Positions 1,967 to 48,250 of a stretch of 64,000 nucleotides of DNA are shown one piece after another. The position numbers and the translations under genes were made by a program. The notes below the pieces were generated by a model. That model was not told where the DNA came from, searched no databases, and saw only the letters and a program-made list of their open reading frames with translations. Position 1 is the first letter of the stretch, and every line of letters starts with the position of its first letter. Source of the stretch: Shigella phage Ag3; the sequence record FJ373894; one strand, written 5' to 3'.

Positions 1967-1981
1967 ATATGGGGTATTTAG
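1967..1981 (-). promoter_or_regulatory. late-promoter-like motif CTAAATACCCCATAT
   Basis: Minus-strand motif about 20 nt upstream of helicase ATG. Confidence 0.35.
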
Positions 1982-2724
1982 CGATCCGGCCAGACTCCGT
2001 TCTGTTCTTTATCCATGCGATGGTACAGACGAACACGCTCAAACATCTTTGCCAGGATGTCATCGCGGTTGAACTCTATGATGGTTGGCGTCAACGATGA
2101 CTCGTTGGCAATCACATTGATGAGGCGGGTGATCTTGACACCGAACATCTGCTGGAACATAACAGAGTACAAGCACAGTTGGATACTGTAGTCCTCGATC
2201 ATTCCCCGCGTCTTCATGGTGTTCGATGTCTTGAAGTCGATGATAGCAGGCTTACCCTCATAAACCCCAATAAGGTCCACTCGACCTGCGAGACCAAGCA
2301 CCTCGCTATATAACGGGATCTCCTGAGCATAGATCTTTGTCATCTTGTTCAGATAGGGGAACAGCTGCTTGAACATGAACATGTATTCGCCAGCCGCTTC
2401 CAACACTTCTTTCATTGGGCGGTTCTTCAAATACAGTTCACATGCAAGGTGCAGCTTCTCCCCTCGGTCAGCGCAACGCATGGTCTCAAGGTCGGCGGCC
2501 TCTGCACCCAGCTTCTCCCTCCAAGCCTCAAGCCATTCATGATCACCAGTACGCCCCAGCATCGTCGTTACAGACGTCAGCTTGACACCAGTTGGTGACA
2601 CATAATGACGACCGTTCTCCGTCGTCACACACTCCAGTTCCTTATGAGGAAGTTCGTACTGCTGGAATGTGTAATGACGATTTTCGAAGTCGTTCAGCTT
2701 GCGCAGGGCTTGGAGAGATGCCAT
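1978..2724 (-). CDS. PD-(D/E)XK nuclease (RecB/Cas4-like)
   Basis: ORF track 1978..2802; ATG at 2724 overlaps upstream stop (ATGA); motifs GRVDLIG, IIDFKTS, QLCLY. Confidence 0.6.
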   Translation of the reverse strand: MASLQALRKLNDFENRHYTFQQYELPHKELECVTTENGRHYVSPTGVKLTSVTTMLGRTGDHEWLEAWREKLGAEAADLETMRCADRGEKLHLACELYLKNRPMKEVLEAAGEYMFMFKQLFPYLNKMTKIYAQEIPLYSEVLGLAGRVDLIGVYEGKPAIIDFKTSNTMKTRGMIEDYSIQLCLYSVMFQQMFGVKITRLINVIANESSLTPTIIEFNRDDILAKMFERVRLYHRMDKEQNGVWPDR

Positions 2725-3176
2725 CAGGAACCATCCATATATTTTCGCCAATCGATGGCATTCTTCACTTCGTATCCCAGCTTGTTCAGGCGATCCAAAC
2801 AAGTCTCGATGAACTTGACTTTTGCTTTTTGTTCTTGTAACAGAACAGACAGTTCTACATAGTCATCGTCGGCTTTGACCCATGTGTCCAGGTCAGACTT
2901 CAGGGGGCGAACCTTCAGGGGGCGCTCTGCGTAGATGTTCGGGGGTAACTCCCCTGCGTAGTAGCGGCGCAGATAGAGATCGATCTGGCGGAAGCGCCCG
3001 TTGAGGAATTCAAGATAACGCCCCTCACGCAGATAATGCCGTTGTACGGCCATCCAAGAGCGCCCGATTTTCAGTGAGATCTGGTCAAGGTTCATGTCTT
3101 CTGGGTCCACTGTAATCAGCGGCTCCAGTTCGTTCATGATGTCCTCGGTTGCCATTGTCTGTAGTTGTTCTTTCAT
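2724..3176 (-). CDS. hypothetical protein (150 aa)
   Basis: ORF track; tightly packed in minus-strand operon. Confidence 0.5.
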   Translation of the reverse strand: MKEQLQTMATEDIMNELEPLITVDPEDMNLDQISLKIGRSWMAVQRHYLREGRYLEFLNGRFRQIDLYLRRYYAGELPPNIYAERPLKVRPLKSDLDTWVKADDDYVELSVLLQEQKAKVKFIETCLDRLNKLGYEVKNAIDWRKYMDGS

Positions 3177-3218
3177 AAAATATCCCAGCTTGTCAATGTC
3201 ATAGAATTATACCGTATT

Positions 3219-3719
3219 TCATGGATTAGAATCAATCACCTTCCCACCAGATAGTGGGACCAGCTGCTGGAACTTGAACGTCACTGTCGTCACCAGCTGA
3301 GGTACAGCCGCATCCACGTCCACCAGTACGTTGTCCAGAGCAGTCGGACGGGCTTCCTCCAGCACGAGAGTGAGGCCAATCGGTCGGTTGAGGTTATCCA
3401 GTAATTCAATGGTAATGTCCTTGGAGACAGCCAAATCCTTGCCGACGTTGCTGGTGATCCATTGGTGGATCTGTAACCATGATTTCCAGTCCTCGTCTAT
3501 AACGAAAGTAAATACGACGGGATCATAGGTTAAACGTTCTGAAGGGATAGAAACCAGTACGTCGCCAGGAGACGGACCATCGATGCCTTCAGAGTATACT
3601 CCTGGTATACTGAAGTCGTGGATGTTACGGGTTAGGAGTACAAGGTCTCCGATAGTCAGACGCCACTTATCGGACGCCGCGAAATTAGGGTTTTCGTTCT
3701 TGAATTGTACGTCGGACAT
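3219..3719 (-). CDS. hypothetical protein (166 aa)
   Basis: ORF track. Confidence 0.5.
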   Translation of the reverse strand: MSDVQFKNENPNFAASDKWRLTIGDLVLLTRNIHDFSIPGVYSEGIDGPSPGDVLVSIPSERLTYDPVVFTFVIDEDWKSWLQIHQWITSNVGKDLAVSKDITIELLDNLNRPIGLTLVLEEARPTALDNVLVDVDAAVPQLVTTVTFKFQQLVPLSGGKVIDSNP

Positions 3720-3757
3720 AATAGCACCTTTTGCTGTGGAGATATTTTGTGACCCTG

Positions 3758-4399
3758 ATGCGCGGGATCAGTAGATTGTTGTTGGCATGCGCGATGCTCT
3801 TGCTTACGAGCTGTCGCATCTTTGTCACGCCAATAATTTCTGTTTCCGAACTCTGGAACCCAGAAGTACGCACCGTACCCGTGACGTTGTCGGCCAGTGT
3901 TCCTACTTGTAACAAGGGTATGCTGGACATCATCGTGCAAGAGTTCCAGACCTTTCAGAAGCTCGTGCCTTTGGGTTGCTTCGAGGAGAACACGAGCACC
4001 CTCAAGCCATACTGGAAGACCACGATTCCCCTCCTGCGTCGTGGCGATGAAGGGAAGATTCCATACCTATCAGCAAGTATTTATTACTCTCAGAACAACA
4101 GCATCATCATCACTTTTAATCCATCATTCTACGCCAAGCTGAAGCAACACATGGTTGGGCGACTGAGTGAAACGTCGGATATAATCGTGACGTTCAAGAT
4201 CATGAATGACTCAGACAAGCCAGTACGAATCGCAACTCAGGGTGTGTTTGTCAACAACGATGCTGTTGGGAATGAGATGAACATCTTCGAAGTTAACCCA
4301 GGGGGGACGATCTGGATTAGACTGAGTAATGTGGGTGTGAACTCCCTACTGTTGGATGGCATCGAACCAGTGGGAGTTCTTCCGGCGCGGGAGCGCTGA
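3758..4399 (+). CDS. putative lipoprotein
   Basis: ORF track 3731..4399 (TTG); ATG at 3758 gives MRGISRLLLACAMLLLTSC with lipobox-like LTSC. Confidence 0.45.
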   Translation: MRGISRLLLACAMLLLTSCRIFVTPIISVSELWNPEVRTVPVTLSASVPTCNKGMLDIIVQEFQTFQKLVPLGCFEENTSTLKPYWKTTIPLLRRGDEGKIPYLSASIYYSQNNSIIITFNPSFYAKLKQHMVGRLSETSDIIVTFKIMNDSDKPVRIATQGVFVNNDAVGNEMNIFEVNPGGTIWIRLSNVGVNSLLLDGIEPVGVLPARER

Positions 4400-4400
4400 A

Positions 4401-5129
4401 TTACTTCAGCGCGCTCTTCAGATTATCAGAACCGATGTTGTTGATAACGCCACCAGCACACAGGTCTTTAGCCCACTCAGACAGTACATTGGCGAACGAG
4501 AAGTTCAGACACTTGCTGACCATGTCTTGGATGTGGGCTAACTCTGAGGCAATACCATTGGCGATATCCTGACCGATTTGCGCCACCTGAGCAATAGCAT
4601 CGTTGATGTATCCGGTAACTTCGGCGGCCAGCGCCTGGATCTTTGCCAGGCCAGCGCTCACACCCTGCGCAACTAACTCAGCCAGTTCGGCCATCTTGGC
4701 AGTAACAGTGCTGAGAGCGCCCTCCATAGCCCCGATCCACTGGCGCCCAAGAGTCTGTATGACGCCGAAGGCATTGTTGATCAGATCACAGTTGGTCGGC
4801 TCGCGCTCGATTGACTTCAGGCCAGATTTGTACGACACGGAAGTCCCGATGCGGGAATACGCTTCGTTCACAGTCTGATCACCATAGTTGTTCAGTGTGG
4901 TGAGGCTGGTGTCGGCAGAGGTGAACATCGTGTTCGTTTCATTGAGTTTGGCTGTGGTTAGACCACCTGCCGTCAGAGCGCCCTGGATTTGCGTATTTCC
5001 GGTGTTTGCCAGTGCAGCTGTAGTCGCCTTGCCGCTGGTGATTAAACCCTGAGACGTGCTGCTGAGGGACGGGAGAGGATTGTTAAATGCGTTACCCTGC
5101 TCAAGGGCGTCATAGATCTGTGCGTTCAT
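4401..5129 (-). CDS. hypothetical protein, possible virion protein
   Basis: ORF track 4401..5144; two in-frame ATGs (5144, 5129); CTAAATA motif and hairpin just upstream. Confidence 0.5.
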   Translation of the reverse strand: MNAQIYDALEQGNAFNNPLPSLSSTSQGLITSGKATTAALANTGNTQIQGALTAGGLTTAKLNETNTMFTSADTSLTTLNNYGDQTVNEAYSRIGTSVSYKSGLKSIEREPTNCDLINNAFGVIQTLGRQWIGAMEGALSTVTAKMAELAELVAQGVSAGLAKIQALAAEVTGYINDAIAQVAQIGQDIANGIASELAHIQDMVSKCLNFSFANVLSEWAKDLCAGGVINNIGSDNLKSALK

Positions 5130-5130
5130 A

Positions 5131-5163
5131 GAAAATACCCCCATGGATGATGGGGGTATTTAG
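5131..5163 (-). promoter_or_regulatory. CTAAATACCCCC motif within an inverted repeat upstream of 4401..5129
   Basis: Arms AAATACCCCC / GGGGGTATTT around ATGGATGAT loop. Confidence 0.4.
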
Positions 5164-5167
5164 GTGA

Positions 5168-5335
5168 TCATGGCAGTTTGTAAACGAAGTTGGACCAGAA
5201 CTTCCGAGCGAACTTCTTGGCATAGACCTTCCAGTCGGCGTATTCGCCCTCCTTCAGGTCGTTGTAGGTCTCGAACCCTACTGCTCCCAGGAAGTACGCC
5301 GTGAAGATATAGCAGAACAGATTGACGACAAACAT
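5168..5335 (-). CDS. small hydrophobic protein (55 aa)
   Basis: Manually translated MFVVNLFCYIFTAYFLGAVGF...; GGAG RBS; below ORF-track length cutoff. Confidence 0.35.
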   Translation of the reverse strand: MFVVNLFCYIFTAYFLGAVGFETYNDLKEGEYADWKVYAKKFARKFWSNFVYKLP

Positions 5336-5376
5336 GATGTATCTCCGCTGTGTGAACTCAAATTATTTATGGTATG

Positions 5377-5799
5377 TTACAAAAGGCGCTTGGTCTTCGG
5401 CTTGCCCATCAGTGTGATGTCCACAGGGAGGCCAGCTTTCTTGCAACGGTTGATCATGTCCAGGGTGCCAGTGGACGAACCATCCCACATCGCAATCGGA
5501 TACACTTCCAGCTTGGTCTGCCTGACGAGATCCAATGCCTTGTCTAACATGTCCTGATTGCGTTTGTTGCCCATCCCTTTCCCATACTTTTCATAATAGC
5601 TCGGAGGGATTGGCATAGGAGTGATATGAACATAATTGATTTCAGCCCAATCACGGCAAATCGTGTCGACACCCGTGGCCTCACCCTCGATCAACGTATA
5701 GACTTCATGAGGATCGAGGAGTTCGTCCAGCTTGGCGAATACCTTATCCCGCTCGGTGATTGAGCGGGAACCTGTAACGAGTACGATATATTTCTTCAT
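5377..5799 (-). CDS. SLOG-fold protein (DprA/LOG-like, DUF2493-type)
   Basis: Internal start MKKYIVLVTGSRS; motifs VLVTGSR and EGEATGVDTICRDWA. Confidence 0.5.
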   Translation of the reverse strand: MKKYIVLVTGSRSITERDKVFAKLDELLDPHEVYTLIEGEATGVDTICRDWAEINYVHITPMPIPPSYYEKYGKGMGNKRNQDMLDKALDLVRQTKLEVYPIAMWDGSSTGTLDMINRCKKAGLPVDITLMGKPKTKRLL

Positions 5800-7266: not shown

Positions 7267-7524
7267 TCAGTTCAAAATGGGATGTTCGTCGATATCGGAC
7301 TGCGTTGCAATCTCCCAGCGGACGATGTTCTCGGTTGTGATGAAATCACGGTTCAGGTGAGAGGCTGGCACATACACCATCGTGTCGACCATGAAGTAAC
7401 GCTGCTCGTTGTTCCAGGAGTCAACGTAAGCCTCAATGAGGCATACTTCGATCACTTCGCCTTTCGGCTTCTTCACAGTCTTTTTCAGGTACATGACGCA
7501 GCCCTCGGATAGTAGACGGGGCAA
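7267..7524 (-). CDS. hypothetical protein (85 aa)
   Basis: ORF track. Confidence 0.45.
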   Translation of the reverse strand: MPRLLSEGCVMYLKKTVKKPKGEVIEVCLIEAYVDSWNNEQRYFMVDTMVYVPASHLNRDFITTENIVRWEIATQSDIDEHPILN

Positions 7525-7554
7525 TAATACCTCTCGCCCCGTTATTGAAAACTG

Positions 7555-9891: not shown

Positions 9892-9929
9892 TCCTTACAT
9901 TGATATTCAGTTAAGTTGAAATTACTTAG

Positions 9930-9960
9930 TAGTTCAAAATCAAGCCCCCTTTCGAGGGCT
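9930..9960 (-). terminator. hairpin/attenuator between scaffold and capsid genes
   Basis: GC stem with one mismatch, U-rich tail on minus strand. Confidence 0.4.
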
Positions 9961-10864: not shown

Positions 10865-10876
10865 CAGTATTTAGTG
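10865..10876 (-). promoter_or_regulatory. late-promoter-like CACTAAATACTG upstream of scaffold gene
   Basis: T4-late-like TAAATA core about 25 nt upstream of ATG. Confidence 0.35.
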
Positions 10877-10885: not shown

Positions 10886-11554
10886 TCAGCCCAGATGTCT
10901 CAATGCGATATCGAGGCGGCGCAGGAAGTCGTCTTCGAACTGAATATTGGTTTTCACCAATGAATCGACCACTTGCCCTTTGATGTCTTTAGGAACCCAA
11001 ATTCCTGAAGATTCATCAAGCTGCCATTCAACAGATTCGCTCACAGCCTTTACATAACAAACTTGTCCAGAAGGACGGTCGACTGCATCAACAGCAGTGA
11101 GCATAAAGCCAGGTTGAACGTCGTCATAACCGTTCACCGACTTGGTCTCACCAAGGCCACGTGTAGACACGGCCAAGTTGAAGTCTGCTTCAGCCAGAGC
11201 ACGAATGATCTGGCCTTTTGGTGTATTTAGCACACGCGCTCGACCGATTGCGTTTGTACCCTCCCAACGGAGGCTCTCGGTCTTCAGCGCAGCTTCAGCA
11301 ATATCTGGGAAAGGGTAGTCGGGATGTTTGAGTTCACCGATTGCGCGACGATCCTGAACATACTCTTTGTCATATGCTTCGACAGCTGGTATGCCCACTT
11401 TCTGGAGATCGTAGTTGCGTCCATTACGGTTCACCTGATTACACATCACGAATGGACCTTCGATGAACATAGCCTTACCCCCGGTGGAGGTCGTGCTTTC
11501 ACCAATTTGGAGGTCTTTCCCTATCGCCGTGATCTCACGCAACAGTTTCATCAT
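10886..11554 (-). CDS. prohead core protease (T4 gp21-like)
   Basis: GELKHP...GRARVL...STRGLGE matches T4 gp21 GELNHP...GRARVI...SSRGLGS. Confidence 0.85.
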   Translation of the reverse strand: MMKLLREITAIGKDLQIGESTTSTGGKAMFIEGPFVMCNQVNRNGRNYDLQKVGIPAVEAYDKEYVQDRRAIGELKHPDYPFPDIAEAALKTESLRWEGTNAIGRARVLNTPKGQIIRALAEADFNLAVSTRGLGETKSVNGYDDVQPGFMLTAVDAVDRPSGQVCYVKAVSESVEWQLDESSGIWVPKDIKGQVVDSLVKTNIQFEDDFLRRLDIALRHLG

Positions 11555-11877: not shown

Positions 11878-12096
11878 TTATTCGTCTTGCGCAGGAGACA
11901 TGTCTTGACTCAGAGAGTTCATGACATATGCGGTGCCCTGTTGAACGAGTTCCTGGGCGCGAGCGGACAGTTCAGTTTGACATTCTGCAACAGCAGCATC
12001 GGTGTCACCAGCGATGATTGCTTTTACCAGATCGATAGCGGCCATGTTCATATCCTCTAAATGTTTTCTATACTTAGTCGAATTATTCTTCACCAC
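11878..12096 (-). CDS. small prohead core protein (gp67-like?)
   Basis: ORF track; position between portal and protease. Confidence 0.35.
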   Translation of the reverse strand: MVKNNSTKYRKHLEDMNMAAIDLVKAIIAGDTDAAVAECQTELSARAQELVQQGTAYVMNSLSQDMSPAQDE

Positions 12097-13774: not shown

Positions 13775-13840
13775 GATTAAGTCCTCAACATTTTCTTGTA
13801 ATTAGTGAGGGGGAATAAGATTCCCCCAGCACTGAGGACA

Positions 13841-14374: not shown

Positions 14375-14427
14375 TATAGATTCTCCAAAAAGAGTTACAC
14401 AATTCTAATTAGTGCTTTCAATGAAAT

Positions 14428-16388: not shown

Positions 16389-16399
16389 GTTATTTAGTG
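16389..16399 (-). promoter_or_regulatory. late-promoter-like CACTAAATAAC upstream of tail sheath gene
   Basis: TAAATA core about 40 nt upstream of ATG 16348. Confidence 0.35.
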
Positions 16400-20644: not shown

Positions 20645-20663
20645 ATCGATACCCTCAATTTTG

Positions 20664-20674
20664 AAGGTATTTAG
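20664..20674 (-). promoter_or_regulatory. late-promoter-like CTAAATACCTT upstream of gp14-like gene
   Basis: About 20 nt upstream of ATG 20644. Confidence 0.4.
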
Positions 20675-27145: not shown

Positions 27146-27175
27146 TTTGATGCTCCATCGATAGGTGCCATTATA

Positions 27176-27191
27176 GAGATATTTAGTATAC
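27176..27191 (-). promoter_or_regulatory. late-promoter-like ACTAAATATCTC upstream of giant structural gene
   Basis: About 35 nt upstream of ATG 27145. Confidence 0.3.
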
Positions 27192-27203
27192 AGCCAACCG
27201 AGG

Positions 27204-27236
27204 AATAGAAAGAAAAAGCCCCTCATCTGAGGGGCT
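27204..27236 (-). terminator. rho-independent terminator after tailspike A
   Basis: Minus-strand AGCCCCTCAGATGAGGGGCT followed by TTTTTCTTTC. Confidence 0.65.
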
Positions 27237-27243
27237 TTGTCTA

Positions 27244-29028: not shown

Positions 29029-29198
29029 AAGAATCTCCTGTTGTTTATTCTCGATGGTATGCGCAACGGCTTATTTAGTTGTCGGCGAGTCCAGGTATGC
29101 CGCCACCGAATATGTTGCTGGTGAACGCGCAACTGGATTGGCTTATCGAACAGACTGGAACAAAGCGCGTTATCAGGTCTGACATGGACGAATGCGAC

Positions 29199-29229: not shown

Positions 29230-31506
29230 TTAGTTCTGAATCAACACGGCATTGTACGATAGTGGAAAATCACCAGAAGTTCCTGAACGGGTAAACTGGT
29301 AGTTAGACCCAGAAACACCAGCAGCGACAGACGCCAACTGACTCGCTGAAGTGGCTGTCACCGCAATGCTACGGCCAGATACCAGGCTAACTATACCGAC
29401 AGCGGCAGTAACGGACCCAACGCCATTCGGGATAGTAACTAACCCGACTTGCTTGTCCGGGTGTGTCGGGGAGTCATAATGGTAGAACTTACACGAAGCT
29501 CCACCCACAAAAACCTGCCCGTAAAAGTAACAATTTTTTGTTGTTACGCTAGAGCCACCAGTTTGGTTATCTAAAACAGTAATTCCCAGTGGCTTATTTG
29601 CCAGGAATGTACAATTTTCCGCAGTTACTCCAACTACAGAGTTCACTAAAAGGTCTCCCTGCTGTGCTGCATCAATGTCATTGTTCTGGAAAAGGCAATT
29701 CACAAGCTTTGGTCTTGCCGGTACTAGGCCACCTTCTTTAATAATCTCAAGACCAAAGTAACGGCTGTCAGAGAATTTAACACCTGTAGCCATAAACTCA
29801 TTACAAGAACCCTGAATTACCACACAAGATTTATTACCGCTGCGGTTGCTGCTGTAATACCCGTTTGTTAATTGTAAATACTGAGTATTAGTCGCTCTCA
29901 GTGCAATACCGGTGGCAAGGTCTGACATGACGTCAGTCAGCCATATCCACCGGCAGTTAACTATCTCTATAGCTGCGGTGCCTAAAGTGTTATCACCACA
30001 GGCGTAGAATCTATCGCCTAGCAGCTCAATACCCTCTATGTTCGTGCTCACATGAGAGCTGTTTTCGGTTATGAACAGCCCGCATTTACACCCATTGAAT
30101 GTATTCTGGTTAAATCGAGTGTTAATCTGTCCCCCACCAAGTACAACACCGTATGTACTGGCAGCGAATCTGTTGAACCTGAAATCAAGCTCTCCAGCCC
30201 CATAACCGCCGGGTGCATCTACGCAATATTTAAGGAAGGCAAAAGAACAATTTTCAACTGTAACCAAAGGCGCTTCGATTCGTATACCAGTTGATGTGGA
30301 TTCTACGGTAACTGACTGAATCGTAAAGTCCGCAAGTCTTGCAAATTCATGAGTAACCTTGAAACATGTATCTCCGTCATTTTCAGGGCAGAATGTCGTG
30401 TTGAGCTTGCCCGCTCCGATAAGATTGGCGGGGCTATCAATAACAATATCTTTTACGAAATATTTCTCCGTTGCCGCCGGGACAAATACTGTATTAGACG
30501 CTGTAGAGGCGAGCTTAGCTGCGGCCAATGCGGCATTGATGGCCTGTGACCATGTATTAGACCCAGTTTTATAGTCGGCGGCATTGAAATAGACGGCATG
30601 GCGGGCGTTAATTATAGCCTGCTCTACAGTAACACCAGAAGAAGTCCCGACTAACGTAGCCCCGGAGCTTGCCGCTAAATCGTTTCTTAAATTTGGGTCC
30701 GTTTGTGGAGTCCAGTCGGCAACAGCAACAGGGTTGGTACTTGCTGCGATTACATGCGGCAATGCACCACTCCAGGAATACCAGGTCTTACTTACCGGGT
30801 CATATACCACTTTGTCACGGTCATTAATTGTTAAAGTGCCGCCTACGCTAAAAGTTAAACCAGAGTCAGCGTAGCCATTTTCAATAGCCCAGTTGAGTTT
30901 TAACTTGATCAAATCATCACCAACAGAGTCTAAACTCTGTTGCACCGTTTGCCCCGACGTAGTTCCAACAAGGCTTGCCCCATTATCAGAAGCCAACGCC
31001 AGGTAATTTTGTTTTACGGACATTTCTGACACGACCCAAACTCCAGCCGCAGGCGAACCTGTGAGGAAACTCACAACTCCTGTTGTGCTGTTGTAGCTGT
31101 AGTTGACACCAGGAACCTGGAACTTCCCGTCAACATACAGAGACTGTACGCCGTAGGTTGTGAAGTCTGGCGTGAAAGTAGTCTCGTTACCGTCCGCCTG
31201 AAACTTGTAGATTCTGATCCCGTTTTCATAATCTTCTGGGGACAGGATCTTGTCAAACAGACAGTACACTACATCATCAGCCTCTAGTGCTCGACCGAGG
31301 TTGACTGTGTTGCCATCGATTTCATAGTTGTCGACAGGAACCTGAACACCACCATTGATAGTGATGAAGCCCGTAACGGGATAGAACGGGAGGGAGATAA
31401 ACGTCTCTCCACCCGTTGCGGTATAAGTGTATGGAATCTGGTGTGGTGCTGTTACAACCGCTCCAAAGATGCTCTCGACGTTTCTGGTCATTTGAAGATA
31501 CCCCAT
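29230..31506 (-). CDS. tailspike protein B (758 aa)
   Basis: Beta-helix-like repeats (NCSFAF, NCTFLANK); alternative start 31491. Confidence 0.65.
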   Translation of the reverse strand: MGYLQMTRNVESIFGAVVTAPHQIPYTYTATGGETFISLPFYPVTGFITINGGVQVPVDNYEIDGNTVNLGRALEADDVVYCLFDKILSPEDYENGIRIYKFQADGNETTFTPDFTTYGVQSLYVDGKFQVPGVNYSYNSTTGVVSFLTGSPAAGVWVVSEMSVKQNYLALASDNGASLVGTTSGQTVQQSLDSVGDDLIKLKLNWAIENGYADSGLTFSVGGTLTINDRDKVVYDPVSKTWYSWSGALPHVIAASTNPVAVADWTPQTDPNLRNDLAASSGATLVGTSSGVTVEQAIINARHAVYFNAADYKTGSNTWSQAINAALAAAKLASTASNTVFVPAATEKYFVKDIVIDSPANLIGAGKLNTTFCPENDGDTCFKVTHEFARLADFTIQSVTVESTSTGIRIEAPLVTVENCSFAFLKYCVDAPGGYGAGELDFRFNRFAASTYGVVLGGGQINTRFNQNTFNGCKCGLFITENSSHVSTNIEGIELLGDRFYACGDNTLGTAAIEIVNCRWIWLTDVMSDLATGIALRATNTQYLQLTNGYYSSNRSGNKSCVVIQGSCNEFMATGVKFSDSRYFGLEIIKEGGLVPARPKLVNCLFQNNDIDAAQQGDLLVNSVVGVTAENCTFLANKPLGITVLDNQTGGSSVTTKNCYFYGQVFVGGASCKFYHYDSPTHPDKQVGLVTIPNGVGSVTAAVGIVSLVSGRSIAVTATSASQLASVAAGVSGSNYQFTRSGTSGDFPLSYNAVLIQN

Positions 31507-31519
31507 AGAGGATTTGCCA

Positions 31520-31534
31520 ATATGGGGTATTTAG
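31520..31534 (-). promoter_or_regulatory. late-promoter-like CTAAATACCCCATAT upstream of tailspike B
   Basis: Identical 15-mer to 1967..1981. Confidence 0.4.
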
Positions 31535-36819: not shown

Positions 36820-36822
36820 TTC

Positions 36823-36863
36823 AAATACCCCTAAATGTGTTCGTTTCATCTAGGGGTATTTAG
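36823..36863 (-). promoter_or_regulatory. CTAAATACCCCTAG motif plus inverted repeat upstream of tailspike D
   Basis: Arms AAATACCCCTA / TAGGGGTATTT; downstream arm supplies GGGG RBS. Confidence 0.4.
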
Positions 36864-40702: not shown

Positions 40703-40740
40703 GTTTATCTCCATCACCTGAACTTGAATATGGTGTTGAA

Positions 40741-40752
40741 GATATTTAGTGG
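40741..40752 (-). promoter_or_regulatory. late-promoter-like CACTAAATATC upstream of baseplate gene
   Basis: About 35 nt upstream of ATG 40702. Confidence 0.35.
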
Positions 40753-40985: not shown

Positions 40986-41015
40986 TTAATTCAATAACAC
41001 CTTCACCAATATAAT
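40986..41015 (+). promoter_or_regulatory. sigma70-like promoter candidate
   Basis: TATAAT at 41010..41015; weak -35 TTAATT 18 nt upstream. Confidence 0.3.
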
Positions 41016-41828: not shown

Positions 41829-43681
41829 CTCAAAGAGGAGAGGACTTTTCAAATTAGCTGGTCTGTGGTAAAGTATTAAACACGAGGGAAACAGCGCATT
41901 GAGTTAGGCATCTAAAGCCGACCTCACTAATCCCAGTCTCAGGGGCATGCGTGAATAGAGGCGTGACATCCACCTTGCATGGTGTTAGTGGACGCACTGA
42001 CCGTCGGAGAACGAAACTCCCTGTTGTAGCGTGATTAGCTCAGAAATAGAGAGCACCCCGTTGGCAAGTCGACACCAACACATAGGGGAGGTCGGGGGCG
42101 CTAATCTCCATCACGCCGACAACATTATGAGTCTTCATAGAGGGTTCATAATGTTGCGTCAAAGGGCAACAAAGGTTCCTGTTGGTTGAATTAACTTGAT
42201 TCATAGTTCCTGCTGATCTTCCCGGATTCGAAGGAGCACCAACAGGCGAGGCCGGATGCGTAAGTTCCGGCAAATCGATGGCGAGGTGGTGCATTGGTGA
42301 CACGGGGTAGCGCCCAGAAGTGTGGTTCGATTCCACACCCTCGCCAACAAATTAAAGGGTTTTCAATAATGGATTGCAGAGTATAGTTAACCCACTGAAC
42401 GAAAAGCTGTTTGGGCACTAGACAAACACTTCGATGTGAACCCAGGACATGGCGTCTTGTGCTCAAACAGGTTTTCGTTTTCGTTGTGCGTGACTTTGCG
42501 GGTTTTAAGAAACAGACCACAAAAATAAATGCAAACGATGATGTAGTTCTGATGGCGGCGTAATAGCCTATAAGTCAGTGAGGTCTTCCGACTCCTCATA
42601 ACAAAATTCGGCGCACTAAAAATAGGCGGGAGGGTGTGATTAATAAGCTCCCGCCGACATCTGAGAGGGCACTTGATCGAGGTCGGTATCCGCTATACGG
42701 GATGCTGTAAAATGAATCCACGGAGTGTCCTCCCAGATGTGTCTCACAGCGCATCAGTTTGCAGTTATGCAAGCTTCAATAAGTTAAAACGCGCCTCAGG
42801 CGTTATGGGATAAAGCCTTAAACAGTGGAATCCCCAGGGCTGGCAATCCCTGTTAAAGAAGTAGCCGTGTGGGGGTCAGCCCCCACAACGCAAAGTAGAG
42901 TCCTCTGGACGTTGAACTTAACCCAAGGGTTGATTCACATGGTGAACGTTCCCGGCGGCGATAGTACAAGATGAGGGGTCATTGAAGTTCAGAGAACTCT
43001 ACTTTGCGGCAGGTACTGCAAAACAGTGATCATCCTGACAAGCGTGATCACTCTTCGACAAAGCATCGCATCGTGGCCATCAACCACATCCTCGCTCTAG
43101 TGATGAGTGGTGTTATGTTCTGTCGGCCAGCCTCGTTTGGTCCGAGCGTAGAGGACAAGTGCTGAAGTGTGACGAAGACACTGAAGTGCGGGTTGTTTAG
43201 TGAATCCTGCTAAGCGCAAGGGTTGAGTGGCAAGAAACACCTGAGGATAAGTCAACGCCATTATTCGCCATGATAATGGCATCGGGAGGCACCCGACGCT
43301 AAACCGTTTGGCCTGACGAAACAGGCAAGTATCTGGGGTCGATCACCTTATCCTCACCCAGATGCGGGTTGTAGCATGGCTGCAACTCTGATGGCTCTCA
43401 ATATTCCATAATGTGTATCGGTTGTGGATGACAGGTAAATGAGCGGAAAGGCGAGAGCCATCAGAGTTGTGACCAACCCGATCTTGCAAGCCCGTATCCC
43501 TGTATGGTTAAGACTTGCAAGTGGAAAGCCCTGGAAAAATAAACGCCTGTGGTGAGGCTACGGTGCAAGCCAAAGACCCACAGAAGCGCGTTGCCGTGAG
43601 GCGCACAAACAGGCATGCATGAACTGATCATGCACAAACGGGATAAAGGGTTGACAGTCCTTGGTTGGTCACACAATAATT

Positions 43682-43946: not shown

Positions 43947-43956
43947 AGCACCTAAA
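43947..43956 (+). promoter_or_regulatory. late-promoter-like CTAAATAAAC upstream of small ORF
   Basis: About 35 nt upstream of ATG 43989. Confidence 0.3.
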
Positions 43957-43988
43957 TAAACCAGTTGTTCAATAAACAACTGGTGAGT

Positions 43989-44189
43989 ATGATGAAAACG
44001 TTCGGTGATTTTATTGCTGAGTGGGATGGCCTCGCCACCGACAACAAAGAGATTGTCGAGTTTGTTGAAAAGCGAGGTGACAAGTGGGTTGTCCTTGACC
44101 ACACCAAGACGAAGGTTCTTGGTACACATGACACCAAAGCTGACGCTGATGCCCAATTAAGGGCGATTGAAGCGAACAAGCACGGATAA
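43989..44189 (+). CDS. small hypothetical protein (66 aa)
   Basis: ORF track 43965..44189; ATG at 43989 after GGTGAG; CTAAATAA motif upstream. Confidence 0.4.
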   Translation: MMKTFGDFIAEWDGLATDNKEIVEFVEKRGDKWVVLDHTKTKVLGTHDTKADADAQLRAIEANKHG

Positions 44190-44190
44190 A

Positions 44191-44266
44191 GACGATGTAG
44201 TTCAGTCGGTAGAACGGCGGTCTGTTAAACCGTATGTCGCAGGTTCAAGTCCTGCCATCGTCGCCA
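44191..44266 (+). tRNA. tRNA-Asn (anticodon GUU)
   Basis: Cloverleaf by hand: acceptor GACGATG/CATCGTC, loop CTGTTAA, T-arm GCAGGTTCAAGTCCTGC, encoded CCA. Confidence 0.85.
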
Positions 44267-44607: not shown

Positions 44608-44829
44608 AACACAGTAAGCGTTGCAGCCAGCTGTGTATAAAATGGGGTGACTCCACATCGGAAACGATGCCCCAACTTCCAGAAATGGTCGGGCGCAAAG
44701 CCTGTAAAGTTCCAGGAGATCGAACCAGAAGGCACTGGTCGCCAGTTAACCAATCGGCGCTGAGAAGCGCGGGGAGTTGGGCTACGGCAGATCAAATGCT
44801 CAATCGGGTGTGAATCCCGTTCAAATTTC

Positions 44830-44913
44830 GCGGGAGCCATAGGGGTTGGACAGTAGCCGACTGATCATCGGCGACGATCACTGGACAGGTTCGAATCCTG
44901 ATCTCCCGCTCCA
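44830..44913 (+). tRNA. tRNA-like gene, possibly Ile (GAU) or pseudo-tRNA
   Basis: Acceptor GCGGGAG/CTCCCGC, anticodon stem GCCGA/TCGGC with loop CTGATCA, T-loop TTCGAAT; extra base and 12-nt variable region. Confidence 0.35.
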
Positions 44914-44917
44914 AATT

Positions 44918-45006
44918 GGAAGGTTGCCCGAGAGGTTTAAGGGACTCGACTGCTAATCGAGTGGGGCTTTTAGCCCCCGAAGGTTCGAATCCTTCACCTT
45001 CCGCCA
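44918..45006 (+). tRNA. tRNA-Ser (anticodon GCU)
   Basis: Acceptor GGAAGGT/ACCTTCC, D-stem CCC/GGG, loop CTGCTAA, variable arm GGGGC/GCCCC, T-arm GAAGGTTCGAATCCTTC, CCA. Confidence 0.85.
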
Positions 45007-45570
45007 AATTTGCGATCATCGCGGAAATCCCAGACGCGAGTGGAGGCCAGGGTGAAGACTGGCACATGGGCACTGACGGCAAAGGTGTTCTACCTCCTGG
45101 AATTGGGTGGCCTGAATGGTAGGGAAAGCAGCCAAGCGTTGTGGGTTCAACTCCCACTCACCCAGCCCCAGATGGAATGGGTCCATCATCGCAAATCATA
45201 TTTTGGGCGTGACTTCCTGAAGAGTTAGAAGGTGTGCATGCCGACTCTCTCGTAATCGGGTGTTTAGGAAGTTAAGAAAATCGCGGCGAGGATAGTGAAA
45301 TGCAAATAGCTTTCTCTACGCCGACGACTTCAGGTTCGATTCCTGACGCGCTCTCCCATAAGGCAGTACCAGTGCGAAGTGTGTAGTCTTTTCAACCCAT
45401 CCCCATCGATGTGGTATAGCCAGGTAAGGAAACCTGGCTTTCTTTTGCCCCCAGCTTAATGTCTTCTTATCACCCCAAATATGTAATCCTTCGTCGTAGT
45501 TTGTTCAATGATACAAAGGGGTTTAAAATTTAACCGTTAAAACCCCTATCATTGATTTGAGGATACACCA

Positions 45571-46224
45571 ATGCGTAATGTTTCTATCTGGGAAAATACT
45601 GAAGAATGGGAATTGCAGTCCACCCCAACTATAATCCGTATGTTCCAATACAAAGGCAACAAGCGTACTCTGAACGAGTTCTTGTCGCCGAATTATATCC
45701 ATCGCGGCTCCCAGCTCGCTCCGCGTGATCTCAACCAGCCTGGCGAATGCACACCCTTTGATCTCGGCGTGAAGGGGCAGGTTGTCCTTATGGGTTACTC
45801 TAGTATTACCGCCGCCGAAGAGGGCAACGGTCAACCGTTCAAAGTATTCCATACACGCGAACAGGCAATCCATTGGCTGGTCAAAAACTTCTTCTATTTC
45901 TATGGCGATGAAAGCGCAACCCGCCGTTGTCGTAAAGCCGTTTCTATGGACTTCGACGCAGAGAATCGGAAGTACCAGGCCATGGCTCGCGAGTATGAAA
46001 AGAATCTCGTCAAGCCTGTCACTGTGGTTGACAACAAATACGTCGCTGAAGCCCCGCGTCATACAGTGAATATCGTTCCGGCCTGTGAAACGAAAGCGCC
46101 GACACCGCCTACTCCTCCGGTCAGTCGTGTTCTGAATGATCAGGGCGCTCCGGTAAAACAAAAGGCCAAGAAATCGTCATTTGTGGATAACATGATGAAG
46201 TTCCTGCGGTTGTTCGGGAAATAA
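45571..46224 (+). CDS. hypothetical protein (217 aa)
   Basis: GAGGA RBS; hairpin upstream. Confidence 0.55.
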   Translation: MRNVSIWENTEEWELQSTPTIIRMFQYKGNKRTLNEFLSPNYIHRGSQLAPRDLNQPGECTPFDLGVKGQVVLMGYSSITAAEEGNGQPFKVFHTREQAIHWLVKNFFYFYGDESATRRCRKAVSMDFDAENRKYQAMAREYEKNLVKPVTVVDNKYVAEAPRHTVNIVPACETKAPTPPTPPVSRVLNDQGAPVKQKAKKSSFVDNMMKFLRLFGK

Positions 46225-46280
46225 TAGAAGGGGGGTGTCTCTCTGCAGTAAATAATAGACACCCCTTATGGAGAATTACC

Positions 46281-46790
46281 ATGAAAGCATTTTCTGATTT
46301 TGTTAACAACCGCCTCCAAGAAATAGACCACCCTCTCATGAAGGGTAAGACACCGCTCACCACACAGGAAATGGTGAAAACAATCAATGATTACTCTGGC
46401 ATCCAGTTCAAACATGCGTCCAGCAAACAAGGCGGTTTACAACGACTAGACCACCAAATCGAATTAGGATACAGAACAACAGTAGGTGGTAAAACTGTTT
46501 CTGTAAACACGTCATTCCGCCCTATCGATCAGGCGACTATAAGAAAGTTGGATCTAGACAAGAATATCACTAGTGGTATGGATAACACTCACTATGAAAA
46601 TTCTGAGATCATATTCGAAGTAGGCGGTGATGGTTACTACAAGACAATGAAAGGCAAGAACGACGGAAATACCAAATCCATTAATGAACTTAAGAACGAA
46701 TTAAAAACGGCAGGCAGCGCCCTGAAATCTAGTAAAAACTCGGAAGACCTGGTCGAAAAATTGAAGTCTGCTGGATACCAGTCCTTCTAG
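46281..46790 (+). CDS. hypothetical protein (169 aa)
   Basis: GGAG RBS. Confidence 0.55.
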   Translation: MKAFSDFVNNRLQEIDHPLMKGKTPLTTQEMVKTINDYSGIQFKHASSKQGGLQRLDHQIELGYRTTVGGKTVSVNTSFRPIDQATIRKLDLDKNITSGMDNTHYENSEIIFEVGGDGYYKTMKGKNDGNTKSINELKNELKTAGSALKSSKNSEDLVEKLKSAGYQSF

Positions 46791-46872
46791 ATTCAGGAAA
46801 TAATCTGAGATTCTCCTTTTCTATACTCCTGTAGATACGCTATGATAAGCCAATGTCTACAGGAGAAATAGA

Positions 46873-48129
46873 ATGAACAAATTCGCTGCACAACCCCTCG
46901 CTCCATATATTCCGTTTCACACGTTAGGGAAAGGTCCATACAAAACGATTTTTGATGTCCTCTCTCTTCATCGTGAACATATTCACTGGGAAGACTACCT
47001 CTACAAACACACTCCGTGTGAACTCGTCGCCAACCCCGAAACTAACCAGCAGGTCTGGTTCAAGCGTGAAGATTACTTCGCGCCGCTATCTTGTTATATG
47101 AATGGCAAGCAGGGCATCAACGGCAGCAAACTCCGTCAGGCCATCTGGCTCATGGTTGAGCACCTGAAGGCCGGAGGCTCCCCTGACATCATCCACGGCA
47201 CTGTCGTTGGTAGTCCGCAGTCCCCTATGGCGACGGCAGTCTCTCGGCACTTCGGCGGCAAGACAACCACTGTACTCGGCGCGACCAAACCCACCACTTG
47301 TATGAACCATGATATGGTGGAAATGAGTGCCTGGTTCGGTAGTGAGTTCAACTTCGTCGGCTCCGGCTACAACAGCACCATCCAACCTCGCTGTAAGAAG
47401 CTCATCGAGCAGGTGAATCCAAAGGCGTACTACCTGGAATATGGTATTACCCTGGACCACACAGTGCATTCCCCCGAGCGCATCGCAGGATTCCATATGC
47501 TGGGCGGCGAGCAGGTTGCTAACATCCCTGACCATATCACCGATCTGATCATCCCTGCTGGATCATGCAACTCATGCACAAGCATCCTGACCGGGCTGGC
47601 GATGCACCCTAAGCCTAATCTGAAGCGTGTTTATCTGATTGGGATTGGACCAAACCGCCTGGACTTCATTGAGAGCCGCCTGCGCATCATCGGCAAACAG
47701 GCCAATCTGCCTCACATTGTCGACTTCACCCGTCGTTATCACGACAACCCAGACTATGTCCACGGCAAGAAGGAGCTTCAGCATGCCTCTAAGAGCGTTT
47801 CGCTGGCTGTCCTCCTAAGTGGTATCAGGCAGAAGGGAGAGCCAGAGGTCGTGCTTCCTCGTTTTGAGGTACACCATTGGGATCTTCACACCACCAATTG
47901 GGTTCGTTACAATGACCTGATGGATTATCAGTGGGGTGATATTGAGTTGCACCCTCGCTATGAAGGCAAGGTCATGACCTGGATCCAGCAGAACAAGCCC
48001 GAGTTGCTCAATGAGAACACTCTGTTCTGGATTGTGGGTAGCAAGCCGTACATCGAGCCAATGAAGGCCGCATGCCCTGAGCTGGCTATCCCAGATGAAG
48101 TGAACGTCAACACCTTCACTCCTTCCTGA
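46873..48129 (+). CDS. PLP-dependent enzyme, fold type II (ACC deaminase/D-cysteine desulfhydrase-like)
   Basis: FKREDYF...NGSKLRQA resembles KRDD...GGNKLRK lysine motif; 418 aa. Confidence 0.6.
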   Translation: MNKFAAQPLAPYIPFHTLGKGPYKTIFDVLSLHREHIHWEDYLYKHTPCELVANPETNQQVWFKREDYFAPLSCYMNGKQGINGSKLRQAIWLMVEHLKAGGSPDIIHGTVVGSPQSPMATAVSRHFGGKTTTVLGATKPTTCMNHDMVEMSAWFGSEFNFVGSGYNSTIQPRCKKLIEQVNPKAYYLEYGITLDHTVHSPERIAGFHMLGGEQVANIPDHITDLIIPAGSCNSCTSILTGLAMHPKPNLKRVYLIGIGPNRLDFIESRLRIIGKQANLPHIVDFTRRYHDNPDYVHGKKELQHASKSVSLAVLLSGIRQKGEPEVVLPRFEVHHWDLHTTNWVRYNDLMDYQWGDIELHPRYEGKVMTWIQQNKPELLNENTLFWIVGSKPYIEPMKAACPELAIPDEVNVNTFTPS

Positions 48130-48135
48130 TCCCTT

Positions 48136-48149
48136 CTAAATACCCCATA
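48136..48149 (+). promoter_or_regulatory. late-promoter-like CTAAATACCCCATA (copy 1)
   Basis: Followed by GGGGTATCTATG. Confidence 0.35.
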
Positions 48150-48235
48150 CAACCCGTGTGGGGTATCTATGAAACCTTTCTTGAATATTTCCGTGATATC
48201 GTCCTGTGCAAACCCGGCCTGGCAGTGCGGGAAGC

Positions 48236-48250
48236 CTAAATACCCCATAT
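48236..48250 (+). promoter_or_regulatory. late-promoter-like CTAAATACCCCATAT (copy 2)
   Basis: 25 nt upstream of ATG 48275 with GAGGAA RBS. Confidence 0.4.

What the first reader, a model, noticed from the sequence alone, without database searches (positions are those of the whole stretch)
1967..48250. Recurrent CTAAATA(CCCCAT) motif upstream of late and structural genes
The 15-mer CTAAATACCCCATAT or close variants (core (C)ACTAAATA) lies 20-45 nt upstream of the start codons of many minus-strand structural genes and of plus-strand genes at 43989 and 48275. It resembles the T4 late promoter TATAAATA, so it is probably this phage's late promoter, which would make the helicase and the acidic protein late genes. 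The 48275 gene has two copies.
Basis: partly seen in the sequence, partly recalled or inferred. Interest (0 to 1): 0.5.

Follow-up and report, generated by a model that had tools for sequence, protein, structure and literature searches.

The report
Late-gene promoter motif of ViI-like phage
The repeated CTAAATA sequence is real and is very probably the late-gene promoter of this ViI-like (Ackermannviridae) phage, a motif already published for the group; the new detail is that at about half the sites it is built into an RNA hairpin that hides the ribosome-binding site, as at a few phage T4 genes.

Summary
CTAAATA occurs 14 times where 3.3 are expected. Thirteen copies lie in the 10.9% of the window that is intergenic (P = 4e-12). 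All 14 point the same way as the gene downstream, and the 13 intergenic copies end 23-43 nt before a start codon.

The window is an Agtrevirus-type phage, almost identical to Salmonella phages P46FS4 and SKML-39. 'CTAAATAcCcc' is already quoted in the literature as a signature regulatory motif of ViI-like phages. CTAAATA at -12 is also the predicted late-promoter consensus of the T4-like phage Aeh1. The closest complete genome encodes gp55-, gp33- and gp45-type late-transcription proteins. The late-promoter reading is therefore well supported, but it is not new and no transcription-start data were found.

Corrections and additions:
- The helicase is UvsW, which is also late in T4.
- The upstream 'second copy' at 48136 is the orphaned promoter of an ADP-ribosyltransferase gene deleted in this lineage.
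- Capsid, portal, tube and gp017 genes use the variants CTAAGTA and CTAATTA.
- At 7 of 13 sites the motif's 3' half and the C-rich tail form the 5' arm of a hairpin that pairs with the Shine-Dalgarno sequence. This matches the arrangement at T4 genes e, soc, 49 and I-TevI.

The parts
1975..1981 (-). CTAAATA, 25 nt before the start of the UvsW-like helicase gene (444-1949). Only a weak hairpin.
5133..5163 (-). CTAAATA (5157-5163) plus a 12-bp hairpin (5133-5161, -17.2 kcal/mol) whose 3' arm GGGGGTAT is the Shine-Dalgarno region of gp031 (DUF7217). An early-type promoter at 7524-7549(-) points through the small genes into it.
9923..9929 (-). Variant CTAAGTA, 40 nt before the major capsid gene. 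Conserved in relatives and preceded by a terminator-like hairpin (9943-9960).
10868..10874 (-). CTAAATA, 27 nt before the scaffold gene (PF25623). No hairpin covering the Shine-Dalgarno sequence.
12071..12077 (-). Variant CTAAGTA, 25 nt before gp017. The orthologous site in a Kuttervirus reads CTAAATA.
13799..13805 (-). Variant CTAATTA, 24 nt before the portal gene. Conserved in all relatives examined.
14406..14412 (-). Variant CTAATTA, 31 nt before gp015 (probable tail tube). The ortholog in L019 reads CTAAATA.
16391..16397 (-). CTAAATA, 42 nt before the probable tail sheath gene.
20649..20674 (-). CTAAATA (20668-20674) plus a hairpin (20649-20670, -10.2 kcal/mol, z = -3.4). The 3' arm GAGGGTAT is the Shine-Dalgarno region of the neck protein gene (Hc2, gp008).
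27180..27186 (-). CTAAATA, 34 nt before the 1612-aa gp003 gene. Weak CUCUAU/AUGGAG pairing. A canonical terminator-like hairpin (27215-27238) lies just upstream.
29072..29078 (-). CTAAATA, 43 nt before the 594-aa tailspike-like ORF. No hairpin.
31498..31534 (-). CTAAATACCCCATAT (31520-31534) plus a hairpin (31498-31530, -16.3 kcal/mol, z = -4.6) before the 758-aa tailspike gene. The likely start is the ATG at 31491, not the in-stem ATG at 31506.
36822..36863 (-). CTAAATA (36857-36863) plus a 16-bp hairpin (36822-36862, -21.0 kcal/mol, z = -6.9). The 3' arm AGGGGTATTT is the Shine-Dalgarno region of the 1019-aa tail protein gp207.
40706..40749 (-). CTAAATA (40743-40749) plus a hairpin (40706-40744, -13.2 kcal/mol) that pairs ATCTTCA with TGGAGAT, the Shine-Dalgarno region of the baseplate wedge gene gp204. 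One pair shows a compensatory change across genera.
43952..43984 (+). CTAAATA (43952-43958) plus a hairpin (43960-43984, -13.1 kcal/mol) before a 66-codon ORF (43989-44189) inside the tRNA cluster. It overlaps a TTCAAT-N14-TATGAT early-type motif.
48136..48166 (+). Orphan CTAAATA (48136-48142) plus a hairpin (48140-48166, about -17 kcal/mol), followed by a 31-codon stub (48168-48263). This is the relic of the promoter and leader of a deleted ART-PolyVal gene.
48236..48250 (+). CTAAATACCCCATAT, 32 nt before the very acidic 152-aa protein gp197 (pI 4.05; 48275-48733). No hairpin.
11224..11230 (-). The only copy inside a coding sequence (prohead protease gene). Probably chance or a minor internal promoter.

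Best explanation
CTAA[A/T/G]TA, usually preceded by A and followed by a pyrimidine-rich stretch, is the -10-type late promoter of this Ackermannviridae phage. By analogy with T4 and Aeh1, it is read by host RNA polymerase carrying the phage's gp55-family sigma factor, helped by the gp33 coactivator and the sliding clamp. It occupies -12 to -6, so transcription should begin at the first A or G about 5-7 nt after the motif. It drives virion genes and UvsW. At about 40% of the sites there is a second layer (inferred). The DNA from the motif's 3' half through the C/T-rich tail encodes the 5' arm of a hairpin whose 3' arm is the Shine-Dalgarno sequence of the downstream gene. RNA that reads in from upstream contains the whole hairpin and is poorly translated. 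RNA started at the embedded late promoter lacks the 5' arm and is translated. The sequence shows the motif statistics, position, orientation, conservation and hairpins directly. The recognition factor, start site, timing and translational effect are inferred.
For: Enrichment, intergenic location and orientation. Downstream genes are scaffold, sheath, neck, baseplate wedge, tail and tailspike genes, plus UvsW, and T4 UvsW is late. The same heptamer at -12 is the predicted late consensus of Aeh1, and T4 TATAAATA spans -13 to -6. The motif is quoted as a signature of ViI-like phages, which have gp55, gp33 and gp45 homologs. SKML-39 gp068 matches phrog_234 late sigma (3.6e-52) and cyanophage gp55 proteins, and gp106 matches PF16805 (1.2e-18). 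Across 12 orthologous alignments, identity jumps from about 0.66-0.72 upstream to 0.95-1.00 across the motif, with no conserved upstream element in this profile. The motif is kept before orthologous genes in Klebsiella, Erwinia and Serratia phages. Position-5 variants before capsid, portal, tube and gp017 genes interchange with CTAAATA between relatives. Position +1 is a purine in 11 of 17 sites. Hairpins: 7 of 13 sites have z between -2.6 and -6.9. Summed energy is -136 kcal/mol for read-through RNA, -74 for shuffles and -43 for predicted late RNA. The Shine-Dalgarno window is 73-100% paired in read-through RNA and 36-55% in late RNA. The hairpins persist in five genera with altered arms and sense-strand G-U pairs. 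They are not terminator-like. An early-type promoter at 7524(-) reads toward gp031. The T4 precedent is documented.
Against: I found no transcription-start, time-course or binding data for any Ackermannviridae phage, so promoter function and the start position rest on analogy. The gp55 and gp33 genes are not in the window, and neither gave a direct sequence match to a solved structure. Six of the 13 exact-motif sites and all 4 variant sites lack a significant hairpin, so the hairpin is not part of the promoter itself. The helix cores (CCCC/GGGG, CUUC/GGAG) are invariant. RNAalifold on unedited alignments finds only one clean compensatory pair, so promoter and Shine-Dalgarno constraints could explain part of the conservation. 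The pyrimidine-rich -5 to -1 stretch also occurs at hairpin-free sites and could be a promoter feature that happens to complement purine-rich ribosome-binding sites. For several hairpin genes (gp204, Hc2) I could not identify a source of read-through RNA.
Confidence: 0.85

Rival explanations
1. The motif is an RNA-level signal rather than a promoter. It would be a single-stranded A/U-rich cleavage site next to a stem-loop, used by RNase E or a phage endonuclease to cut polycistronic mRNAs in front of each gene. Some hairpins would then stabilise the new ends.
For: The motif is strand-specific and intergenic, as a processing site would also be. It often directly abuts or overlaps a stable hairpin. 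T4 uses endonucleolytic cuts in intergenic regions extensively.
Against: Six of the seven positions are invariant and only position 5 is tolerant, which looks like sigma/-10 recognition rather than a loose nuclease preference. The heptamer equals the Aeh1 late consensus and shares TAAATA with T4. The dedicated late sigma and coactivator are present in the family. In most hairpin sites the motif is partly inside the stem, not single-stranded. At gp204 it heads a divergent transcription unit.
Confidence: 0.05
2. The motif is the late promoter, but the inverted repeats are not translational gates. They would be weak terminators, pause sites or 3'-end stabilisers for the upstream gene, or incidental pairing between a pyrimidine-rich promoter-proximal stretch and purine-rich ribosome-binding sites.
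For: Three hairpins start within 7-12 nt of the upstream stop codon (gp030/gp031, gp206/gp207, orf418/orf31). The stretch from -5 to -1 is 69% pyrimidine, including at hairpin-free sites. The helix cores are invariant, so covariation support is thin. The gp031 hairpin is followed by UAUUUUCU.
Against: None of the seven is scored as terminator-like on the sense strand, and the sequence after the stem is not a conserved U-tract across genera. Stems extend beyond the pyrimidine tract into the motif's ATA and into genus-specific upper stems. The 3' arm always contains or abuts the Shine-Dalgarno sequence, 4-9 nt from the ATG. Canonical terminators sit upstream of 5 of 10 hairpin-free late promoters and 0 of 7 hairpin promoters (Fisher P = 0.04), which suggests the two devices are alternative ways of dealing with read-through.
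Confidence: 0.3
3. The conserved block is the promoter of a phage-encoded single-subunit RNA polymerase (T7-like), with the start site inside the block.
For: Conservation extends about 8 nt beyond the heptamer, giving a 15-nt block at some sites.
Against: No RNA polymerase gene is annotated in the complete SKML-39 genome, whereas the gp55/gp33 system is present. The extended block is present at only 4 of 17 sites.
Confidence: 0.01

Closest known systems
'CTAAATAcCcc' regulatory motif of ViI-like phages (Viunalikevirus/Ackermannviridae), as quoted in the EspM4VN genome paper (PMC7283392)
   Same: It is the same sequence in the same phage group (the window is an Agtrevirus), found before the same kinds of genes.
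   Different: The accessible literature lists it only as a 'unique regulatory motif', with 5 full-length copies in EspM4VN. I found no start-site mapping, no mention of the position-5 variants and no mention of its hairpin context. The original description (Adriaenssens et al. 2012, recalled from memory) could not be read here.
Late promoters of T4-like phages: T4 TATAAATA (-13 to -6) and Aeromonas phage Aeh1 CTAAATA (from -12)
   Same: It is a single -10-type element with no evident -35, placed before virion genes and uvsW. The heptamer is identical to the Aeh1 consensus. gp55-, gp33- and gp45-type factors are encoded by the family.
   Different: C at -12 and A (not T) at -13 differ from T4. 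The sigma factor is only remotely related: 24-32% identity to cyanophage gp55 proteins and no direct match to solved structures. Position -8 tolerates G or T at the most highly expressed genes.
T4 genes e, soc, 49 and I-TevI, and Aeh1 mobE: a late promoter embedded in the 5' strand of a hairpin that sequesters the ribosome-binding site
   Same: The architecture is the same: the promoter lies in the DNA that encodes the 5' arm, the Shine-Dalgarno sequence is in the 3' arm, and the predicted late transcript lacks the 5' arm.
   Different: In T4 it is described for a handful of genes sitting in early regions. Here it occurs at 7 of 13 exact-motif promoters, including core baseplate, neck and tailspike genes, and it is conserved across five genera. 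The effect on translation has not been tested here.

Membership tests
T4-type (gp55-dependent) late promoter | A short A/T-rich -10-type element related to TATAAATA, with no -35 element | tested here: met
   CTAAATA shares TAAATA with T4 and equals the Aeh1 consensus. Conservation begins abruptly at the C, with no conserved upstream block in the profile.
T4-type (gp55-dependent) late promoter | The phage encodes a gp55-family sigma, a gp33 coactivator and a gp45 sliding clamp | tested here: met
   In the closest complete genome, SKML-39, which is about 96-100% identical over shared genes: phrog_234 at 3.6e-52, PF16805 at 1.2e-18, and a weak gp45_C match at 0.0017 plus the record's annotation. 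None of the three genes lies inside the window.
T4-type (gp55-dependent) late promoter | Located upstream of virion structural and other late-class genes, co-oriented with them | tested here: met
   13 of 14 copies are intergenic and 14 of 14 are co-oriented. Downstream genes are scaffold, sheath, neck, baseplate, tailspikes and UvsW.
T4-type (gp55-dependent) late promoter | Transcripts start about 6 nt downstream of the element, late in infection and dependent on DNA replication | not testable with these tools
   I found no start-site or time-course data for Ackermannviridae. The only indirect support is that +1 is a purine in 11 of 17 sites.
T4 e/soc-type translational gating by a promoter-embedded hairpin | A stable helix that pairs the Shine-Dalgarno sequence and/or the AUG with an upstream segment | tested here: met
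   Seven sites have energies from -10 to -21 kcal/mol and z from -2.6 to -6.9, with the Shine-Dalgarno window 73-100% paired. RNAalifold recovers the core helices.
T4 e/soc-type translational gating by a promoter-embedded hairpin | The late promoter lies within the DNA encoding the 5' strand, so late RNA lacks that strand | tested here: met
   The 5' arm starts at motif position 2-6 in 6 of the 7 hairpins. With T4/Aeh1 spacing the predicted late RNA loses the arm, and summed energy falls from -136 to -43 kcal/mol. This depends on the inferred start site.
T4 e/soc-type translational gating by a promoter-embedded hairpin | Longer transcripts from upstream promoters actually enter the gene | tested here: inconclusive
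   It is plausible for gp031 (early-type promoter at 7524(-), co-directional genes, no canonical terminator), and for orf66 and the orf31 relic. No source was identified for gp204 or Hc2.
T4 e/soc-type translational gating by a promoter-embedded hairpin | Pairing, not just sequence, is under selection (compensatory changes) | tested here: inconclusive
   Folding each sequence separately shows both-sided changes at 2, 3 and 6 stem positions in three site families, with none broken. The unedited alignments give only one clean compensatory pair, and the cores are invariant.
T4 e/soc-type translational gating by a promoter-embedded hairpin | Translation is repressed on read-through RNA and relieved on late RNA | not testable with these tools
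   This needs reporter or ribosome-binding experiments.
Intrinsic (Rho-independent) terminator | A G+C-rich stem followed directly by a U-tract | tested here: not met
   None of the seven motif-linked hairpins is scored on the sense strand. The tails after the stems differ between genera and are not U-tracts.

The most novel reading that the evidence does not exclude
In Ackermannviridae, the 'cCcc' tail of the published late-promoter motif is not a promoter determinant. Together with the motif's own 3' half, it would be an anti-Shine-Dalgarno arm. A large share of late genes (baseplate, neck, tailspikes and accessory genes) would then be translated only from transcripts started at their own embedded promoter. 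This would turn the T4 e/soc curiosity into a family-wide way of insulating each gene's protein output from read-through transcription, used as an alternative to placing a terminator upstream.
Probability: 0.4. Interest if true: 0.45.

Novelty: already known. Interest (0 to 1): 0.3.

Why it matters
The motif gives a practical rule for annotating late transcription units in ViI-like phages, several of which are used or proposed for biocontrol of Salmonella, E. coli O157, Dickeya and Enterobacter. The refined consensus CTAA[A/T/G]TA extends that rule to the capsid, portal and tube genes. If the promoter-embedded hairpins do gate translation, they would show that a mechanism known from a few T4 genes is used systematically to tie each structural protein's synthesis to its own late promoter. 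That bears on how large phages set virion protein stoichiometry, and on how to engineer these genomes: an insertion upstream of such a gene would leave it silent unless the embedded promoter is kept. None of this changes current understanding of phage transcription.

Tried and rejected
- Literature searches for transcription-start mapping in Ackermannviridae found nothing. The original Viunalikevirus paper is not held. A bare 'CTAAATA' search returned mostly primer sequences.
- Sequence searches of the SKML-39 gp55 and gp33 homologs against solved structures gave no match at E <= 0.01. Homology rests on PHROG and Pfam profiles and on tblastn to cyanophage gp55.
- Rfam found only tRNAs, so the hairpins belong to no curated RNA family.
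- The terminator explanation was rejected because none of the hairpins is scored on the sense strand and the tails are not conserved U-tracts.
- The sigma-70-type promoter scan was no better than shuffles.
- A single-subunit RNA polymerase promoter was rejected because no such gene is annotated in SKML-39.
- MAFFT misaligned the 3' arms of the most distant sequences, so the RNAalifold counts understate, and my per-sequence folds may overstate, the covariation.
- Pseudomonas phage Cygsa01 (58% GC) showed no CTAAATA before the orthologous genes. I did not work out its motif.
- My first start-codon choices for the 758-aa tailspike gene and orf31 were wrong and were corrected.

Full report
**What the window is**

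The window is from a ViI-like myovirus (Ackermannviridae, genus Agtrevirus). Segments match Salmonella phage SKML-39 at about 96% nucleotide identity, and Shigella and Dickeya phages at 85-97%. Individual proteins are 99.5-100% identical to Salmonella phage P46FS4. I fetched the complete annotated SKML-39 genome and projected its 208 coding sequences onto the window by tblastn, adding window-specific ORFs. The resulting map has:
- a minus-strand block of virion and recombination genes at about 440-40,700;
- a divergent intergenic region;
- a plus-strand block with four tRNAs, DNA polymerase and many small genes.

About 89% of the window is coding.

- The exact 15-mer CTAAATACCCCATAT lies at 1967-1981(-), 31520-31534(-) and 48236-48250(+), with a one-mismatch copy at 48136-48150(+).
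- The core CTAAATA occurs 14 times against 3.3 expected. The largest count in 100 dinucleotide-preserving shuffles was 7.
- Thirteen copies lie in the 10.9% of sequence that is intergenic (P = 3.9e-12), and all 14 are co-oriented with the local genes (P = 6e-5).
- The gap from motif end to start codon is 23-43 nt at the 13 intergenic sites.
- In the whole SKML-39 genome, 15 of 19 copies lie in the 7.8% that is intergenic (P = 7e-14).
- The one coding copy, 11224(-), is within chance expectation.

**What is downstream**

By homology and profile searches, the genes behind the 13 intergenic copies are:
- the capsid scaffold, the probable tail sheath and the neck protein Hc2;
- the 1612-aa gp003 (large protein of unknown function), two tailspike-like ORFs, the 1019-aa tail protein gp207 and the baseplate wedge protein gp204;
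- gp031 (DUF7217);
- a UvsW-type helicase (PF21241 N-terminal domain);
- a very acidic 152-aa protein (pI 4.05);
- a 66-codon ORF inside the tRNA cluster;
- a 31-codon stub.

**The motif is already known**

- The CBA120 paper (2011) noted gp55, gp33 and gp45 homologs in ViI-like phages but said the late promoter sequence was 'not yet identified'.
- The LIMEstone paper predicted 33 late promoters by similarity to T4.
- The EspM4VN paper (2020) lists 'CTAAATAcCcc' as one of two 'unique regulatory motifs' of the group. From memory, this traces to the 2012 proposal of the genus Viunalikevirus, which I could not read.
- In the T4-like Aeromonas phage Aeh1, the predicted late-promoter consensus is exactly CTAAATA starting at -12. 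The T4 TATAAATA box spans -13 to -6.
- I found no transcription-start mapping for any Ackermannviridae phage.

**Evidence for the late-promoter reading**

- The factors are present in the closest complete genome. SKML-39 gp068 matches the PHROG late sigma family (3.6e-52) and is 24-32% identical to gp55 proteins of T4-like cyanophages. gp106 matches the Pfam late-transcription coactivator family (1.2e-18). A sliding clamp is annotated. None of the three genes lies in the window. Neither the gp55 nor the gp33 homolog matched a solved structure by sequence.
- Conservation has the expected shape. I collected 60 related loci and aligned 12 orthologous sites. Identity to the window is about 0.66-0.72 immediately upstream, jumps to 0.95-1.00 across CTAAATA, and stays at or above 0.85 for about 8 more nucleotides. 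No conserved upstream element shows in this profile, as expected for a T4-type late promoter with no -35.
- The motif is kept before the orthologous baseplate and tailspike genes in Klebsiella (Taipeivirus), Erwinia (Nezavisimistyvirus) and Serratia (Miltonvirus) phages, whose proteins are only 30-54% identical.
- With T4/Aeh1 spacing, position +1 is a purine at 11 of 17 sites. The stretch from -5 to -1 is 69% pyrimidine.

1. The 'helicase as a late gene' is the expected state. T4 UvsW is expressed from a late promoter to shut down origin R-loops.
2. The 48275 gene does not have two promoters of its own. In LIMEstone-type and Kuttervirus relatives, the upstream copy with its hairpin precedes an intact 152-154 aa gene of the ART-PolyVal ADP-ribosyltransferase family (PF18760, 2.4e-10). 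The second copy then follows just before the acidic-protein gene. In the window, SKML-39 and two other contigs, that gene has suffered an internal deletion. What remains is its promoter, hairpin, start codon and an 8-31-codon out-of-frame stub, 100 nt upstream of the next promoter.

**The consensus is broader than reported**

The gaps before the major capsid, gp017, portal and tube genes carry one-mismatch variants at the usual distance: CTAAGTA at 9923(-) and 12071(-), and CTAATTA at 13799(-) and 14406(-).
- Both CTAAGTA copies in the window, and 2 of the 4 CTAATTA copies, are in this position.
- They are conserved at the orthologous positions, and position 5 swaps with A in some relatives: the tube site in L019 and the gp017 site in a Kuttervirus.
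- The working consensus is therefore aCTAA[A/T/G]TA, which gives 17 candidate late promoters in the window.
- ATAAATA before gp030 (5364-) and TATAAATA before gp181 (59181+) are two further possibilities.

**Hairpins that include the motif**

At 7 of the 13 exact-motif sites, the segment from the motif to the ATG folds into a hairpin far more stable than shuffled controls. These sites are gp031, Hc2, the 758-aa tailspike, gp207, gp204, orf66 and the orphan site. Energies run from -10 to -21 kcal/mol, with z from -2.6 to -6.9.
- In 6 of the 7, the 5' arm starts at motif position 2-6, so it includes the motif's own ATA and the C/T-rich tail.
- The 3' arm carries the G-rich Shine-Dalgarno sequence (GGGGT, GAGGGT or GGAGAT), 4-9 nt from the ATG.
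- Summed energies are -136 kcal/mol for the motif-to-ATG RNA, -74 for shuffles and -43 for RNA starting at the predicted +1.
- The Shine-Dalgarno window is 73-100% paired in the long form and 36-55% in the late form.
- Bases of a -10 element cannot be part of the transcript it starts, so the full helix can form only in RNA that reads in from upstream.

This is the arrangement documented for T4 genes e, soc, 49 and I-TevI, and cited for Aeh1 mobE. There the late promoter lies in the DNA for the 5' strand of a helix that sequesters the ribosome-binding site, and only late transcripts are translated.

**How strong is the hairpin evidence?**

In favour:
- The hairpins persist at the same three site families in five genera with changed arms. 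At gp204, ATCTTCA/TGGAGAT becomes AACTTCA/TGGAGTT in Erwinia, AGCTCTA/TTGGAGTT in Serratia and ATCTCC/GGAGAT in Klebsiella.
- The upper stem at gp207 is different but complementary in each genus.
- One Serratia tailspike site uses entirely different arms (AATAATCG/CGATTATT) that still begin inside the motif.
- G-U pairs occur on the sense strand only, which argues for RNA rather than a DNA cruciform.
- None of the hairpins is scored as terminator-like, and their tails are not conserved U-tracts.
- Canonical terminator-like hairpins lie just upstream of 5 of the 10 hairpin-free late promoters and of none of the 7 hairpin promoters (Fisher P = 0.04). This hints that the two devices are alternative ways of handling read-through.
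- An early-type promoter (TTCAAT-N14-TATTAT, 7524-7549 minus strand) points through the small genes gp024-gp030 directly into gp031. That is the situation the T4 model requires.

Against:
- The helix cores are invariant, so they say nothing either way about selection for pairing.
- RNAalifold on the unedited alignments recovers the helices but finds only one clean compensatory pair.
- Folding each sequence separately can overstate covariation.
- The pyrimidine-rich stretch is also present at hairpin-free sites.
- For gp204 and Hc2 I could not identify where read-through RNA would come from.

I rate the translational-gating reading at roughly even odds (0.4-0.5) and the promoter reading at 0.85.

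**Verdict**

This is a real, highly non-random and correctly interpreted feature, but it is not new. It is the published signature motif of this phage group and matches the predicted late promoter of Aeh1. What this analysis adds is the relaxed consensus that covers the capsid, portal and tube genes, the explanation of the tandem copy as a relic of a deleted gene, and the observation that the motif's C-rich extension is largely the anti-Shine-Dalgarno arm of T4 e/soc-type hairpins used at many late genes.

Noticed in passing
window 7524-7549(-), 40990-41015(+), 42362-42387(+), 43968-43993(+), 45504-45529(+), 50165-50190(-), 54124-54149(+), 62324-62349(+): The group's other published motif, TTCAAT-N14-TATAAT (usually TTCAATAA...), has 8 matches with at most 1 mismatch, against 0.15 expected. 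It sits before non-structural and small genes, so it complements CTAAATA and is probably the early, sigma-70-type promoter class.
   Followed up: partly
window 48136-48263(+); L054, L055 and L058 at about 4470-4968: An ART-PolyVal ADP-ribosyltransferase gene (152-154 aa, PF18760) is intact in LIMEstone-type and Kuttervirus relatives. In this lineage it is internally deleted, leaving its promoter, its hairpin and a 31-codon stub.
   Followed up: yes
window 5364-5370(-) and 59181-59188(+): cATAAATA lies 28 nt before gp030, and an exact T4-type TATAAATA lies 28 nt before gp181. These may be additional late promoters with A instead of C at -12. The gp030 copy is conserved in four relatives.
   Followed up: partly
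window 27170-27197(-): A sigma-70-like TTGGCT-N16-TATAAT (10 of 12 matches) overlaps the CTAAATA before gp003, with the late motif lying in its spacer. This could be dual promoter use or chance.
   Followed up: no
SKML-39 genome positions 62019 and 67118 (L002 12019 and 17118): Two CTAAATAC copies sit in the loops of terminator-like hairpins (GGGCAC...GTGCCC followed by TTTATCTTTT, and TCCCCC...GGGGGA followed by TTTCTTTTCT) in a non-structural region. This context differs from the hairpins in the window that cover the ribosome-binding site.
   Followed up: no
window 43651-43680(+) and 43952-44266(+): A near-consensus sigma-70 promoter (TTGACA-N18-AATAAT, 11 of 12 matches) precedes tRNA-Ser. 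The CTAAATA at 43952 precedes a 66-codon ORF (phrog_3684) that ends 1 nt before tRNA-Asn. The downstream tRNAs may therefore be transcribed both early and late.
   Followed up: no
window 46873-48129(+): The 418-aa ORF upstream of the orphan promoter has a weak, sub-threshold match to pyridoxal-phosphate-dependent enzymes (PF00291, 3.4e-7, 30.3 bits against a cutoff of 35).
   Followed up: no
L064 (Pseudomonas phage Cygsa01, 58% GC): This distant relative has the same baseplate gene order but no CTAAATA before the orthologous genes. 'ATAAGTACCCC' before its gp6-like gene may be the equivalent motif.
   Followed up: no
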